Positions 28,801 to 37,800 of a DNA stretch of 64,000 bases are shown here, piece after piece. The stretch lies in assembly GCA_034780895.1 (NCBI GenBank), contig JAUZTB010000127.1, positions 41,312,503 to 41,376,502 of the forward strand, in the 5' to 3' direction. A program made the position numbers. The number at the start of each line of letters is the position of its first letter. The stretch's first letter is position 1. Source of the stretch: Rhynchobatus australiae (lineage: Eukaryota).

Positions 28801-31800
28801 GTATGCAGACACAAGGATCTCTCTGAAAACCAACATTCAATAATTTCACACTATGCTCTGTTTTTCTATTCTCCTCTATCCTTTCACACCTTCCTGAAAG
28901 ATACAACTTTCAATTTTGATATCACCCTTGTGGTTTTGTTTTATANNNNNNNNNNNNNNNNNNNNNNNNNNNNNNNNNNNNNNNNNNNNNNNNNNNNNNN
29001 NNNNNNNNNNNNNNNNNNNNNNNNNNNNNNNNNNNNNNNNNNNNNTACGTTCTTTAATGCCTCTCTATCTTATATGCATGCACCTTAGCACTTGGATGGG
29101 TACATGGGTAGGAAAAGTTTGGAGGGATATGGGCCAAACATGGTCATATGGGACTAGCTTAGAAGGGAATCTTGGTCAGCATGGACCAGTTGGGCTGAAG
29201 GACCTGTTTCCATGCTGCATTAATCTATGACTCCTAGGATCTGCTAATGCTGCACTCTTATTATAGAAAAATACATTTTGATTGTACAAAAAATCTGATC
29301 AGACTGCCATGCTAGTTTCACTTCACAGCACATCACCCTTTGCCATTTCTACTATATGCAATGCAATCCCACCACTAGCCACATTTTCTTCACCCCACCA
29401 TCTTCTGCAGGGATCACACCCTCTGTAACTCCCTGGTCCACTCATCCCTACTCACCAACCCCTCCTTGACCCCTGGCACTTTTCCTCTGCGACACTGGTC
29501 CCTACACCTCCTCCCTCACCACTATCCTGAGACCTAAACACCGTTTCAGGTCAGGCAAAGATTCATCTACGATTCCTCCAACCTAGTCTACTGCATTCAG
29601 TGCTCCCGATGTAGCCTCCTCTGCATCGGCGAGTCCAAGCGCAGACTCACAGTTTTGCAGAACATCCACGCTCTGTCACAGTGGCTATCCCAAGCTCCCA
29701 GTTGCATGCCATTTCAATTCTTCTTCCCATTCCCACACCAACCCGTCCATCCTCTGCCTTCTCCAATGCCAGGGTGAGGCCCAATGTAAATAAAGCCCTC
29801 CCCTAACTGGCCAGACCTGTCCGTCATCCTTCACCTCTCCTCAGTCCACCAATCACCTTGGGTGTGTGTCTCACCACTCCGATCTCCTCTTATACTGGTC
29901 ATCTCCCTTCGCTACTCTTAGTCCTGATGCAGGGTTTCGACCTGAAACATCAACAACTCCATTCCCCTCCCAGATGATGTTCAACCCGCTGACTTCATCT
30001 GTTTAAAACTCTATCAACATTCAAGTCATGGAAGGGGAGCTAAATGTAAATGAAACAATTATTCTCTGTTCAACTGACTTCCATCCATTGATCCAATAAT
30101 GGATCAGCTGCAATCCTGCCAAAGAATTGCGTTCNNNNNNNNNNGTAATAGCAGAACACATCTAAACTATCCAAATAAATCTAGCAATCTTGCTGCTAAC
30201 TTTATTGAACCCCTCAATGTTCGTTCTAAGCAGATGATCATGAACTCAGTGGAACTGGACCTAATCACACAGTCCACATGGTATTCACATCCACACGACC
30301 CTCATTGATCCTTTCAGCCCTATTTGAAAATCTTTTCAATAGTAAAGATCAGGAAACAGAAGTAAAGCCACTATGATATTGATCCTTCCCATCAAAGCAC
30401 AATAAATTCCATTAATTCATTAAATCTTGTGCTGGCCCTTGAAACTGAACAGGTGGTTAAGGCTGAATTTACTCCACTAATGCAAAAAAAAATCCAGATC
30501 AGTGTGGTTAAAAAAAGCTCTTTAACAGGGCAACGTAATTAGCAGAGTTCTAAAATAGACTGGATTAAAATGGTTGGGGAGCTCATTAAATGTTTCTCAA
30601 TGGATATGCTCCCTCTGACTGAGATACATTAATTATCCAGCTACAAATTTACAAACTTAACATTAGAATGTTGAAAAAAAATTACACTGAAAAGCCTTTT
30701 ACCAGCTTGACTTGACAGGGAAAAGGATGTATCACTGGTTGTGCATGGGACTTATGTTGACATCATTCTTGTCATTTCAATTGCAATATTTGTTCAGGTA
30801 AGCAAGAGACAAGAAAGTAAAAGAGTGATGAATTTGAGAGTATTTAGTGGAGTACTACATTGGAGTGCCATTGTTGTATTCATGATGTGGTGAAATCCAG
30901 GTCTTGTCATTCATTCCANNNNNNNNNNNNNNNNNNNNNNNNNNNNNNNNNNNNNNNNNNNNNNNNNNNNNNNNNNNNNNNNNNNNNNNNNNNNNNNNNN
31001 NNNNNNNNNNNNNNNNNNATTTAGTACTGAAACAAAAAAGGACATAGTTTGGATCTGCAGATTTAGCTGATATCCAGAAAGGCATTAGGATCCCCTACAG
31101 GCTAAGAAAAGTAAGTCAGCTACTTTTGGTTATTTCCCAATGTCTCTTCACCACATCTCTCCCAGTCCCTTCTTTCCCCTTCCCCAATGGAAAGTGTGTA
31201 TGTAGAATGAGGGGGAAAAACTGGGCTTGACTGTTATACCTAACACAATTGTGGTCACAATGGTGGACACCCACTGCCACCTTCACAACCTCTCATGTGC
31301 CACATCTTNNNNNNNNNNGGTGGGGTGGGGGCAGGAGAAAAGTGTCCAATAAAAGAAAAAATATTTTAAAAATTTCATTTTGAAATTGTGGATTTTTTTT
31401 TTGTATATGTTTACAAAGCTTCCCCATTTCCAACACTTCTACTCTTTTCTCATCAGCTCCTTACATGGATTGCGGACCCACCAAGCACAGTTGCAATGAT
31501 GACAATCGCCCCTGATTTCCATGGAACACGCCATGAAGCTCTACTTACAGGCCTCAGGAAGTTCACAAAATACTACACATCTGTATTGTGTTTTACAACA
31601 CCAGGCGATGGTCCCAAGAGTCCACCCAAGATGATTCAGACCCATGAAGATAGTGAGTACTTGAGGACTGTCGCTTGGATCTGTAGTCATTTTGCTCTGT
31701 AACTTCATTCACAGGGATGCTTGAAAAGGATCTGTAGCTCTGTCAGAGCCAATTTGAACTACAGGGTGATGAGGAAGATGGCCATGCAGTAAGTTGAAAG

Positions 31801-34800: not shown

Positions 34801-37800
34801 ATTCCACTATTTTGTGGTAAGCATGGTGAATCTCAGCTGGAAACTAGTCTGTGACAAAGAGAAATAAAAACATTGCTTCAAATGCAACCTGTTCTGGCAA
34901 TGCTGCACTCTCCCCACTCCTTGCGCTCTTACCTTGAACATCAGACAGTCATCCTGGTGNNNNNNNNNNNNNNNNNNNNNNNNNNNNNNNNNNNNNNNNN
35001 NNNNNNNNNNNNNNNNNNNNNNNNNNNNNNNNNNNNNNNNNNNNNNNNNNNNNNNNNNNNTCTGGAATACCTCCTTCAATCTTTGGTTCTTCAACTCTGC
35101 GCTGCTCACTTGCTTGCGCATCTCCGAAGACAAAAATTGGGAAATATTATTTGATCATTGCTAAATGGTAGACATAAATCAATTTTGTGATTTAATGAAA
35201 GCTCCAGTGGCAATCAAATCTACAACATTTCAAAATTATAAATCTGCCATCTAATTGGATGGGCACTGATAGATTTTATGGAATAAAATGGATGCAAAGC
35301 TTTAACCTTATGAGCGGTTCAGACAACATATGAAACAAAGAACATAGACTCATTAACCAACTCAGTGTTGTCAATAAAAGGTTATTGTTACAGTTCAACA
35401 ATAGGTTATTAATCACATTGCAGGGCTTGAAGGCATAAAACATCCCCCAATCAGTCACAATTTTAATTTGGTTGCAGTTTCTATGGGGCCCAACATCCCT
35501 CTAAAGAATAAATTTCTTCCATTTCAGCACTGTCCCTTCAAACAAATGTCACAGATGTTTCCACTCAAATAGTAAAAACTGGAATCATATTTTAATTACA
35601 GCCAAAGATGGTGATGAGCCCAAACCACTGTAGAATTCCTTTATTGTTGGGTAACTTTGCATATATGCCAAGAAATGTGTGTTCCATGAACACAACTAGA
35701 GCTATAACAAGAAAGTGGTTCCTGGATATTAGAAACATCACAAGTTAATTTTCATGAATTAATCATTGGACCCATAAATAAATGATGATCATTAATAAAC
35801 CCAAGAGGAAGTTAAAGAGGAACTCCTTTATCCAGAGTGGTTAGAAAATGGCCCTGATGCAGGTTCTTGATTTGAGACATCGACTACATCTCTGTCTCCA
35901 CAGATGTTGCTTGACCTGCTGAGTTCCTCCAGCAGTTTGTTTTTTGGCTGGAATATGAAACTTGGTACCACAAGGCATTGTTGAAGCAAGCAGTATTGGT
36001 ACACCTCAGATCAACACATAAGTAGGAGAAAGGAATAGAAGTATATGCTGACAGTGAACAATGGGAAAGATAGAAGGCAGCTTATGTGGTACATAAAACC
36101 AAGGAGGACCACTTGGGTGGAATAGCCTGATGGACACATATTATGTAATTTTATGCAGTAAAGTGACAGATGCAATCTGTTTTAAGACTAATCTCAACAT
36201 GATGTTTCCAAGACCTTGATTATTGTGCTGTTATTGATAGCCTGATAAAATATAAGAAACAGGAGCAGAGGTAGGCCAAATTACACTGGATTACTCCCAG
36301 TGCCACGTGCTAGCAAGGTCAGAAATAGAAAAATAAGCCAGATAAATTTGTGGCTGAGGGGCTGGTACAGGGGGCAGGGATTCAGGTTCTTGGACCATTG
36401 GGATCTCTTCTGGGGTAGAGGTGACCTGGTCAAGAGGGACTTGAACGAGAGAGGGACCAATATCCTTGCAGGGAAATTTGCAAGTGCTTCACAGGAGGGT
36501 TCAAACCAGATTGGCAGGGGGATGAGATTCTGAGCTGGAGCAAGTCATGGAATAAGGCTACAGCCAGTGAGAGCAAGCTTAGCAATCAGGATAGCCAGGG
36601 CATAGTAAAAGGAGGGAAAGGAATACCCAGTTAATCTGCATTTATTCAATGCACGAGGTTTAACATGTAAGGCAAATGAACTCAGAGCATGGATTGGCTC
36701 TTGAGGACTGGGATTTTATAGCCATAACAGAGACTTGGCTGAGAGAAGGGCAGGACTGGCAGCTCAGCTTTCCAGGATACAGATGCTACAGGCGCGACAG
36801 AGGTACAGGTAAATGAGGAGGGAGTGTTGTCTTTTCGATAAGGGAGGATGTAACNNNNNNNNNNNNNNNNNNNNNNNNNNNNNNNNNNNNNNNNNNNNNN
36901 NNNNNNNNNNNNNNNNNNNNNNNNNNNNNNNNNNNNNNNNNNNNNNNNNNNNNNNNNNNNNNNNNNNNNNNNNNNNNNNNNNNNNNNNNNNNNNNNNNNN
37001 NNNNNNNNNNNNNNNNNNNNNNNNNNNNNNNNNNNNNNNNNNNNNNNNNNNNNNNNNNNNNNNNNNNNNNNNNNNNNNNNNNNNNNNNNNNNNNNNNNNN
37101 NNNNNNNNNNNNNNNNNNNNNNNNNNNNNNNNNNNNNNNNNNNNNNNNNNNNNNNNNNNNNNNNNNNNNNNNNNNNNNNNNNNNNNNNNNNNNNNNNNNN
37201 NNNNNNNNNNNNNNNNNNNNNNNNNNNNNNNNNNNNNNNNNNNNNNNNNNNNNNNNNNNNNNNNNNNNNNNNNNNNNNNNNNNNNNNNNNNNNNNNNNNN
37301 NNNNNNNNNNNNNNNNNNNNNNNNNNNNNNNNNNNNNNNNNNNNNNNNNNNNNNNNNNNNNNNNNNNNNNNNNNNNNNNNNNNNNNNNNNNNNNNNNNNN
37401 NNNNNNNNNNNNNNNNNNNNNNNNNNNNNNNNNNNNNNNNNNNNNNNNNNNNNNNNNNNNNNNNNNNNNNNNNNNNNNNNNNNNNNNNNNNNNNNNNNNN
37501 NNNNNNNNNNNNNNNNNNNNNNNNNNNNNNNNNNNNNNNNNNNNNNNNNNNNNNNNNNNNNNNNNNNNNNNNNNNNNNNNNNNNNNNNNNNNNNNNNNNN
37601 NNNNNNNNNNNNNNNNNNNNNNNNNNNNNNNNNNNNNNNNNNNNNNNNNNNNNNNNNNNNNNNNNNNNNNNNNNNNNNNNNACAAGGCATAAATATCAAA
37701 AGGTCACTAATAAAATAACGGAATTCTTACAAGAACCTAAAATACTGATAACAACTATGAGAGTACAGCTTATGAGATAAGATTTCGAAAAATTCAAGGG

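What the first reader, a model, noticed from the sequence alone, without database searches (positions are those of the whole stretch)
31457..35123. SDK1 internal exon lies 3.3 kb from, and antisense within the last intron of, MAD1L1
Seen: an intact SDK1 FN3 exon (+) and the MAD1L1 penultimate exon (-) converge, with no N-gap between 31319 and 34959. I recognised no neighbouring exon of either gene in the 64 kb, though gaps could hide some. Known: both are large multi-exon genes; in human both map to 7p22 but do not overlap. Inference: true interleaving after a rearrangement, a duplicated or transduced orphan exon, or a misjoin. The RTE remnant at 32040-33600 and the gaps at 30919-31018 and 31309-31318 are candidate breakpoints.
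[Added by the scan's program, not by the reader: the finding's places include an assembly gap (unread letters, written N; its length is only estimated) at 34960 to 35060. Whether the letters on both sides are continuous or in frame is not known: test that first.]
Basis: partly seen in the sequence, partly recalled or inferred. Interest (0 to 1): 0.7.

Follow-up and report, generated by a model that had tools for sequence, protein, structure and literature searches.

The report
Stray sidekick-1 exon inside MAD1L1 intron
In this draft ray genome, one intact exon of the large neural adhesion gene SDK1 sits 3.3 kb from, and on the opposite strand to, the second-to-last exon of the checkpoint gene MAD1L1; it is most likely a copied stray exon or an assembly error, not two genes truly woven together.

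Summary
Window 31457-31652 (+) is an intact SDK1 exon with canonical splice sites. It encodes the C-terminal two-thirds of FN3 repeat 3 of 13. It matches sawfish SDK1 at 63/65 residues and has no private substitution. Window 35121-34933 (-) is the penultimate coding exon of MAD1. The 101-N run inside it keeps the frame (61+101+27 = 189 nt = 63 codons). The hidden part equals the 34 residues seen in 22 of 23 elasmobranch MAD1 records. The two exons are 3,280 N-free bases apart and converge. No other exon of either gene is visible in the 64 kb.

SDK1 and MAD1 lie on the same chromosome record in 12 of 13 elasmobranch species. Their RefSeq accession numbers are never adjacent (gaps of 56-876 in 10 of 10 species), which fits the separated human-like layout.

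My estimates:
- Duplicated orphan exon lodged in the last MAD1L1 intron: about 0.5.
- Chimeric contig: about 0.3.
- Functional interleaving of the two genes: about 0.07.

The "RTE remnant" is only an old LINE 3' tail, and its geometry does not fit transduction. Interest is low to moderate.

The parts
31457..31652 (+). SDK1 (sidekick-1) internal coding exon, 196 nt, 65 codons plus 1 base. It encodes the C-terminal two-thirds of FN3 repeat 3 of 13.
   Evidence: It matches Pristis SDK1 at 63/65 and Mobula at 62/65, with 0 private residues among 16 sequences. It maps to Pristis residues 1013-1077, inside repeat 3 (975-1082).
31437..31456 (+). Pyrimidine tract and AG acceptor of the SDK1 exon
   Evidence: The tblastn identity stops here: orthologues read YK where the window reads HQ.
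31653..31658 (+). GTGAGT donor of the SDK1 exon. The exon ends with one spare A (phase 1).
   Evidence: The next residue is R or K in 15 of 15 orthologues, and AGR/AAR codons start with A.
35061..35121 (-). MAD1 (MAD1L1) penultimate coding exon, 5' part: 61 nt, 20 codons plus 1 base
   Evidence: (Pfam MAD profile 549-568 of 661, E 1.8e-5, below the curated cut-off)
34960..35060 (.). 101-N run inside the MAD1 exon. It stands for 34 codons together with the base before it. Not filled.
34933..34959 (-). MAD1 penultimate exon, 3' part: 27 nt, 9 codons
   Evidence: 9 of 9 residues are identical to the form carried by 9 of 22 matched elasmobranch MAD1 records, Pristis among them.
34927..34932 (-). 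GTAAGA donor of the MAD1 exon, the start of the last MAD1L1 intron
35122..35123 (-). AG acceptor of the MAD1 exon, preceded by a pyrimidine tract
   Evidence: An acceptor further upstream would bring an in-frame TGA (ORF 34807-35154).
33118..33493 (+). Decayed 3' end of a non-LTR retrotransposon (LINE), split over several frames. The clade is not established.
   Evidence: 54% identity over 28 aa to another copy at 15891-15974 (+). There is no nucleotide-level copy in the window, no Pfam RT or endonuclease, and no usable Atlas hit. The reading as a LINE C-terminal tail rests on recall.
24296..24388 (-). Non-coding homology to the odd terminal exon of the Rhinoraja longicauda 'MAD1-like' model. 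It ties this scaffold piece to the region downstream of the MAD1 penultimate exon.
   Evidence: 74% over 31 aa, E 4.5e-11; the match is split over two frames; 0 hits among 1.84 billion representatives.
30919..31018 (.). Last of six exact 100-N joins. The piece that starts at 31019 carries both exons, and the SDK1 exon begins 438 nt inside it.
31309..31318 (.). 10-N run 138 nt upstream of the SDK1 exon

Best explanation
The sequence is what it looks like: a genuine, unbroken SDK1 FN3 exon with its own intron flanks. It lies in the last intron of MAD1L1, on the opposite strand, in the genome of a ray-like fish. The most likely origin is a DNA-level duplication from the SDK1 locus on the same chromosome. 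That duplication would have dropped a short genomic fragment, holding one exon with its splice sites, into the MAD1L1 intron. There it would be an orphan, an unprocessed pseudo-exon. It would not be part of the working SDK1 transcript, and it would be harmless to MAD1L1 because it is antisense and intronic.

Shown: the identity, integrity, position and orientation of both exons; the continuity of the MAD1 exon across the N-run; and the absence of neighbouring exons.

Inferred: that a second, parental copy of the exon exists elsewhere, and that the copy is young enough to have stayed intact.
For: 1. Both exons lie on one N-free stretch, 31319-34959. The join across 34960-35060 is vouched for by the exon itself. 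So scaffolding did not create the juxtaposition.

2. The exon has intron-like flanks and canonical splice sites, so it is genomic DNA and not a retrocopy.

3. Only this one SDK1 exon is present in 64 kb, with none within about 31 kb on either side. That is what a short copied fragment predicts.

4. SDK1 and MAD1 sit on records of identical length, that is the same chromosome, in 12 of 13 elasmobranch species where both are listed. A random chimeric join would rarely pick a partner from the same chromosome. I estimate a few per cent, since one such record is 74-190 Mb of a genome of some Gb. Intrachromosomal duplication does so readily (general knowledge).

5. The relatives' RefSeq accession numbers for the two genes are never adjacent. 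The gaps are 56, 73, 79 and 123 in four sharks, 316-356 in four stingrays and mantas, 631 in S. canicula, and 876 in Pristis, 10 of 10 species. In humans MAD1L1 lies in 7p22.3 with FTSJ2, NUDT1 and SNX8, and SDK1 in 7p22.2 with CARD11 and GNA12 (PMC10297997, passages read). The working SDK1 exon is therefore expected elsewhere.

6. No young repeat that could mislead an assembler lies between the exons, as far as the window shows.
Against: 1. The exon shows no sign of decay. It has 0 private residues among 16 aligned sequences, and at both differences from Pristis the window keeps the common state. Both splice sites and the phase are intact. An orphan would have to be young; with slow elasmobranch rates I estimate perhaps up to some tens of millions of years.

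2. No second copy has been seen, because none could be looked for.

3. No duplication boundary, target-site duplication or flanking repeat was found.

4. The assembly is very fragmented, with 23 N-runs in 64 kb, so a contig-level error cannot be dismissed.

5. The accession-number argument assumes that RefSeq numbering follows gene order. That is recalled, not tested.
Confidence: 0.5

Rival explanations
1. Assembly artefact. Contig 31319-34959 is chimeric. Its left part, with the SDK1 exon, belongs to the SDK1 locus. Its right part belongs to the MAD1L1 intron. The two were fused by the assembler or by a gap-closing step somewhere between 31653 and 34932.
For: The draft is very fragmented, with 23 N-runs and pieces of a few kb. 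The SDK1 exon sits only 438 nt from the left edge of the piece that starts after the last fixed 100-N join, and 138 nt from a 10-N run. It is therefore anchored on one side only. A decayed LINE tail lies between the exons, and GC drops from about 0.42 to about 0.35 near 33600. The relatives appear to keep the genes apart. The exon is as well conserved as a working exon should be.
Against: The stretch between the exons has no N. Within the window it has no repeated sequence at 75% identity or more, only three tiny tandem arrays, and one 24-nt imperfect direct repeat. The LINE tail is old and broken over several frames, which is not the kind of repeat that collapses. A random misjoin would seldom pair two genes of one chromosome (12 of 13 species). 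Scaffold order on the far side is independently supported by the Rhinoraja-like homology at 24296-24388 (-).
Confidence: 0.3
2. True functional interleaving. This is the only copy of the exon and is used by SDK1. SDK1 (+) and MAD1L1 (-) would then overlap over a long distance, with the MAD1L1 last exon lying upstream of this SDK1 exon.
For: The exon is intact, with canonical splice sites, correct phase and no private substitution. The two genes share a chromosome in 12 of 13 species. Both genes have large introns, so missing neighbours within 30 kb are not decisive.
Against: It needs a constitutive internal exon of one gene to sit between two constitutive exons of another. No single inversion or translocation produces that without breaking both genes (inference). 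Accession numbers are never adjacent in 10 of 10 elasmobranchs, including the closest relatives Pristis and Mobula. The human layout has the genes in different sub-bands with other genes between them. No further SDK1 exon lies in the 32 kb downstream and no MAD1 last exon in the 35 kb downstream on its strand.
Confidence: 0.07
3. The roles are reversed. The window is the SDK1 locus, and the MAD1 exon belongs to a partial MAD1 duplicate, like the 187-aa 'MAD1-like' model on a 179-kb Rhinoraja record.
For: Rhinoraja has a short, rather divergent MAD1-like model on a small separate record. The window shares one residue (S in QVSSAELK) with that record alone, 1 of 22, while 21 of 22 have N. It also shares that record's odd tail region.
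Against: The known 29 residues differ from ray MAD1 at that one position only. The tail homology (24.3 kb) and the exon (35 kb) lie on either side of the SDK1 exon. So the MAD1-derived DNA surrounds the SDK1 exon, not the reverse. The Rhinoraja record may simply be the true gene's 3' part on an unplaced piece.
Confidence: 0.06

Closest known systems
SDK1 of Pristis pectinata (XP_051877097.1, P0098), FN3 repeat 3
   Same: 63 of 65 residues are identical, over the same boundaries (residues 1013-1077). The same residue class follows the exon.
   Different: In Pristis it is one piece of a 2,325-aa model. Here no neighbouring SDK1 exon is in sight, and the neighbour is a MAD1 exon on the other strand.
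MAD1 C-terminal domain (PDB 4dzo, 7b1f) and elasmobranch MAD1 RefSeq proteins
   Same: The 63-codon exon aligns end to end with 63 residues of the solved domain. 28 of the 29 readable residues equal ray MAD1.
   Different: 34 codons are unread (N). There is one substitution (S for N), shared only with the Rhinoraja MAD1-like record. The last exon is not in the window.
Unprocessed pseudogene fragments, that is orphan exons left by segmental duplication (general knowledge)
   Same: A single exon with its intron flanks and splice sites, away from the rest of its gene, inside another gene's intron, with the presumed source on the same chromosome.
   Different: There is no disabling change and no sign of relaxed constraint. 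A parental copy has not been shown.
Nested or interleaved antisense gene pairs (general knowledge)
   Same: An exon of one gene lies inside an intron of another on the opposite strand.
   Different: Known nested genes usually lie whole within one intron. Here a gene with 13 FN3 repeats, about 1 Mb long in humans (recalled), would have to be woven through MAD1L1. Relatives show no adjacency by the accession proxy.
LINE-mediated 3' transduction of flanking exons (general knowledge)
   Same: A LINE remnant lies 1.5 kb from the exon, on the same strand.
   Different: The exon is on the 5' side of a 5'-truncated element. Transduced DNA lies 3' of the element.

Membership tests
Sidekick-1 (SDK1) coding exon | Closer to SDK1 than to SDK2 or other FN3 proteins | tested here: met
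   the best named hits are SDK1 (Narcine 89%, E 1.5e-49) and SDK2 reaches 51%; identity to 15 cartilaginous-fish SDK1 proteins ranges from 49/65 to 63/65.
Sidekick-1 (SDK1) coding exon | Fibronectin type III fold signature | tested here: met
   FN3 domains of RPTP-delta, LAR and contactins, best E 5.1e-10. Pfam fn3 covers profile 45-80 of 84 only, E 0.023, below the cut-off, as expected for part of a domain; the exon falls in repeat 3 of 13.
Sidekick-1 (SDK1) coding exon | Usable splice sites and a phase that fits the neighbouring exons | tested here: met
   AG acceptor and GTGAGT donor; the spare A fits the R or K that follows in 15 of 15 orthologues.
Sidekick-1 (SDK1) coding exon | Lies in order among the other SDK1 exons | tested here: inconclusive
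   None found within 31 kb upstream or 32 kb downstream. Large introns or N-runs could hide them.
MAD1 / MAD1L1 (Pfam PF05557) penultimate exon | Matches the MAD profile and MAD1 proteins at the C-terminal part | tested here: met
   profile 549-568 of 661, E 1.8e-5 (23.8 bits, under the 30-bit cut-off because only 20 residues are readable there); all 25 hits carry PF05557; solved MAD1 C-terminal domain, E 1.5e-9.
MAD1 / MAD1L1 (Pfam PF05557) penultimate exon | Continuous and in frame across the N-run | tested here: met
   63 codons; 34-residue spacing in 22 of 23 records; 63 residues align to 63.
MAD1 / MAD1L1 (Pfam PF05557) penultimate exon | Followed downstream by the last coding exon | tested here: inconclusive
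   Not found in 1-34932 on the minus strand. That implies an intron longer than about 35 kb, an exon hidden in an N-run, or wrongly ordered pieces.
Interleaved antisense gene pair | Exons of both genes alternate along one locus and both transcripts use them | not testable with these tools
   No genome-wide sequence or RNA data for this species. Proxy from relatives: accession numbers are not adjacent in 10 of 10 species.
Orphan duplicated exon (unprocessed pseudogene fragment) | A parental copy exists at the gene's own locus | not testable with these tools
   No eukaryotic genome collection is on hand, and the window holds one copy only.
Orphan duplicated exon (unprocessed pseudogene fragment) | Carries intron flanks (DNA-level copy, not a retrocopy) | tested here: met
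LINE 3' transduction | The carried DNA lies 3' of the element | tested here: not met
   The LINE tail reads on the + strand at about 33118-33493. The exon lies upstream of it at 31457-31652.
Chimeric contig | The junction lies in a repeat shared by two loci, and no reads span it | tested here: inconclusive
   There is no repeat at 75% identity or more within the window. Genome-wide repeat content and reads are not available.

The most novel reading that the evidence does not exclude
In this ray lineage SDK1 and MAD1L1 are truly interleaved on opposite strands. The working exon for SDK1 FN3 repeat 3 would lie inside the last MAD1L1 intron. Two large essential genes of the conserved 7p22-like block would then be transcribed through each other after a lineage-specific rearrangement.
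Probability: 0.07. Interest if true: 0.55.

Novelty: new member of a known kind. Interest (0 to 1): 0.25.

Why it matters
The value is mainly practical. The locus is a trap for gene prediction and for synteny maps built on this draft. A lone, perfect SDK1 exon next to a MAD1L1 exon can create false gene models, a false SDK1 copy, or a false breakpoint in the conserved MAD1L1-SDK1 chromosome block. If the copy is real, it records a recent intrachromosomal duplication in a ray. If the interleaving were functional, it would be an unusual case of two large genes sharing one stretch of DNA, but the evidence leans against that.

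Tried and rejected
1. RTE label. Pfam on 63 ORFs of >=30 aa between the exons found no reverse transcriptase or endonuclease; there were 8 weak, unrelated hits at E>=0.048. The Atlas gave no usable hit for 33280-33411. 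Only a distant peptide likeness to another LINE tail in the window remained.

2. Other genes in the window. Pfam on 140 ORFs of >=70 aa gave one weak GDSL-lipase hit. Rfam found no family at gathering score.

3. More exons of either gene. None were found. A weak FN3-end-like match at 2982-3059 (+) appeared with the Pristis query only (44%, gapped, E 0.005 in a tiny ad hoc database). Its ORF does not look like FN3, so I treated it as chance.

4. Whether the Rhinoraja-tail homology is a common coding repeat. There were 0 hits among 1.84 billion representatives.

5. Duplication boundaries or target-site duplications. Only one 24-nt, 75% direct repeat and no inverted repeats turned up.

6. Literature. 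'SDK1' + 'MAD1L1' + 'synteny' returned 0 papers. The same genes with '7p22' returned 5 papers, and with 'CARD11' + 'ELFN1' 2 papers. Judged from titles and abstract starts, none concerns gene overlap or cartilaginous fish. I read passages of PMC10297997 only.

7. Collections not used. Genome contigs holds only bacteria and archaea. No structure prediction was run, because both exons belong to well-known folds.

8. Joined model. I searched each exon on its own and left out the step of joining exons into a spliced model.

Full report
**What the window is.** It is a fragmented draft of a vertebrate genome, with 23 N-runs totalling 3,280 N. Six runs are exactly 100 N and all of them lie left of 31019. 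From 31019 onward the runs have odd sizes (10, 101, 827, 183, 10, 268, 4, 581, 3). I read this as a second-stage join of smaller pieces on the left and one primary piece from 31019 to the end. That fixed 100-N joins come from a later scaffolding step is recalled, not tested. The organism is a ray-like cartilaginous fish, not human. The SDK1 exon matches Pristis pectinata at 63/65, two Mobula species at 62/65, skates and Narcine at 58-59/65, stingrays at 55/65, sharks at 49-52/65 and Callorhinchus at 51/65. Mouse reaches about 63%.

**The N-run, tested first.**
- The MAD1 exon starts at 35121, after an AG at 35123-35122 and a pyrimidine tract. It ends at 34933, before GTAAGA.
- It reads 61 nt, 101 N and 27 nt, which makes 189 nt or 63 codons in one frame. 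Together with the single base before it, the run stands for 34 codons.
- In 22 of 23 named elasmobranch MAD1 records, exactly 34 residues separate the same two flanking motifs. One record did not match my pattern.
- The 63 residues align as one stretch to 63 residues of the solved MAD1 C-terminal domain (4dzo_A 9-71, 7b1f_B 8-70, E 1.5e-9).
- The two sides are therefore parts of one exon, in the right order, orientation and frame, and the written length fits. The exact fit suggests a well-sized gap or a deliberate mask, not a placeholder. I did not fill it.
- Of the 29 readable residues, 28 equal ray MAD1. The one difference (S for N) is shared only with a Rhinoraja 'MAD1-like' record.
- Pfam places the 5' part at MAD profile positions 549-568 of 661 (E 1.8e-5, under the curated cut-off because so little is readable). 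All 25 database hits carry the MAD domain.
- It is the penultimate coding exon. After its last residue, full-length proteins continue with 52 residues to the stop, while the Rhinoraja model continues differently.

**The SDK1 exon.**
- It spans 31457-31652 (+), 196 nt, with an AG acceptor behind a pyrimidine tract and a GTGAGT donor.
- It has no stop and translates to 65 residues plus one spare A. The next residue in 15 of 15 orthologues is R or K, whose AGR/AAR codons begin with A.
- 69 of 72 candidate proteins scored E<=0.001. The top named ones are SDK1, and SDK2 reaches 51%.
- In Pristis SDK1 a profile built from the repeat itself finds 13 FN3 repeats. The exon (residues 1013-1077) is the C-terminal two-thirds of repeat 3 (975-1082).
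- Solved FN3 domains of RPTP-delta, LAR and contactins match at E down to 5.1e-10.
- Among 16 aligned sequences the window has no private residue. At both differences from Pristis, the window keeps the state of the other species.

**Geometry.**
- The exons converge with 3,280 N-free bases between them.
- No other exon of either gene is detectable. I ran 14 SDK1 proteins and 6 MAD1-type proteins. A permissive search with the Pristis neighbour exons gave a best E of 0.13, gapped.
- Of the 46 flanks of all 23 N-runs, only the two at 34960-35060 hit. Exons lying wholly under N-runs cannot be excluded.
- At 24296-24388 (-), the window matches the unusual tail of the Rhinoraja 'MAD1-like' model at 74% over 31 residues. 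The match is split over two frames, so it is non-coding homology. The surrounding ORF has no relatives among 1.84 billion representatives.
- This places the piece 13277-26379 downstream of the MAD1 exon in the expected orientation. MAD1L1-derived DNA therefore lies on both sides of the SDK1 exon.

**Between the exons.**
- Pfam finds no reverse transcriptase or endonuclease in 63 ORFs.
- There is no nucleotide repeat shared with the rest of the window.
- There are three tiny tandem arrays, one 24-nt imperfect direct repeat and no inverted repeats.
- A decayed LINE 3' tail on the + strand at about 33118-33493 resembles another copy at 15891-15974 at 54% over 28 residues.
- The 'RTE' label and the extent 32040-33600 are not supported.
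- Because the exon is on the 5' side of this truncated, same-strand element, 3' transduction does not fit.

**Relatives.**
- SDK1 and MAD1 proteins lie on records of identical length in 12 of 13 elasmobranch species where both are listed: Pristis, Hemitrygon, Hypanus, two Mobula, Heterodontus, Cetorhinus, Mustelus, two Scyliorhinus, Chiloscyllium punctatum and Rhincodon. The exception is Rhinoraja, whose MAD1-like fragment is on a 179-kb record.
- Their RefSeq accession numbers are never adjacent. The gaps are 56 to 876 in 10 of 10 species, and smallest in sharks (56, 73, 79, 123).
- If numbering follows gene order (recalled, untested), a dozen or more genes lie between them, as in humans.
- In humans, MAD1L1 is in 7p22.3 with FTSJ2, NUDT1 and SNX8, and SDK1 in 7p22.2 with CARD11 and GNA12 (PMC10297997, passages read).
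- A Mustelus read-through model that joins rRNA methyltransferase 2 to MAD1 fits the same layout.

**Weighing the readings.**
- The juxtaposition is at contig level, so scaffolding alone did not make it.
- A random chimeric join would seldom link two genes of one chromosome, whereas local or intrachromosomal duplication does so easily. No young repeat is seen at the would-be junction. These points favour a real insertion of a copied SDK1 fragment (about 0.5) over a chimeric contig (about 0.3).
- The flawless state of the exon cuts the other way. It is also what a misplaced or working exon would show.
- Functional interleaving (about 0.07) would need a constitutive internal exon of one gene to lie between constitutive exons of another. 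No single rearrangement gives that without breaking both genes, and relatives show no adjacency.
- A reversed reading, with a MAD1 fragment inside SDK1 (about 0.06), is disfavoured because MAD1-derived DNA flanks the SDK1 exon on both sides.

**What stayed unchecked.** I could not check the copy number of the exon in this genome, read support across the junction, the real gene order in ray chromosomes, or transcripts. I searched each exon separately and left out the joined spliced model. No literature on an SDK1-MAD1L1 overlap was found with the three searches named.

Noticed in passing
window 24296-24388 (-): Matches the odd C-terminal tail of the Rhinoraja longicauda 'MAD1-like' RefSeq model (74% over 31 aa), but the match is split over two frames here. 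That model's terminal exon is probably intronic, non-coding DNA of the last MAD1L1 intron.
   Followed up: partly
window 35100-35102 (-), codon 7 of the MAD1 exon: S where 21 of 22 elasmobranch MAD1 records have N. The S is shared only with the Rhinoraja MAD1-like record, which is also unusually divergent in its upstream exons.
   Followed up: partly
window 35895-35938; copies at 47840-47883, 18338-18377, 21838-21876 and 16706-16790: A short interspersed repeat of about 40 nt (up to 87 nt) at 75-87% identity. It is the only repeat that the 31019-36854 stretch shares with the rest of the window.
   Followed up: no
window 36249-36530 (+): Weak Pfam GDSL-lipase match (E 0.0064, below the cut-off). 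It may be the esterase-like ORF1 of a LINE; that link is recalled, not tested.
   Followed up: no
window 15888-16983 (+): Two overlapping ORFs of 200 and 211 aa. The first begins with a LINE-tail-like peptide related to 33280-33411. By eye, the second looks like a GIY-YIG-type endonuclease of a Penelope-like element, but Pfam gave no hit at E<=0.01.
   Followed up: no
window 2982-3059 (+), beside N-run 2735-2914: Weak FN3-end-like match to Pristis SDK1 residues 1556-1582 (44%, gapped, E 0.005 in a tiny local database), not seen with the Mobula query. Probably chance.
   Followed up: partly
window 1-31018 versus 31019-64000: All six exact 100-N runs lie in the left half and none lies right of 31018. 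The window therefore seems to be built from small pieces joined at fixed gaps on the left and one primary scaffold on the right.
   Followed up: partly
P0085, P0227, P0228 (Mustelus asterias): RefSeq models named rRNA methyltransferase 2 carry the MAD domain. They are read-through models that join MRM2 to MAD1, implying the human-like MRM2-MAD1L1 adjacency in a shark.
   Followed up: no
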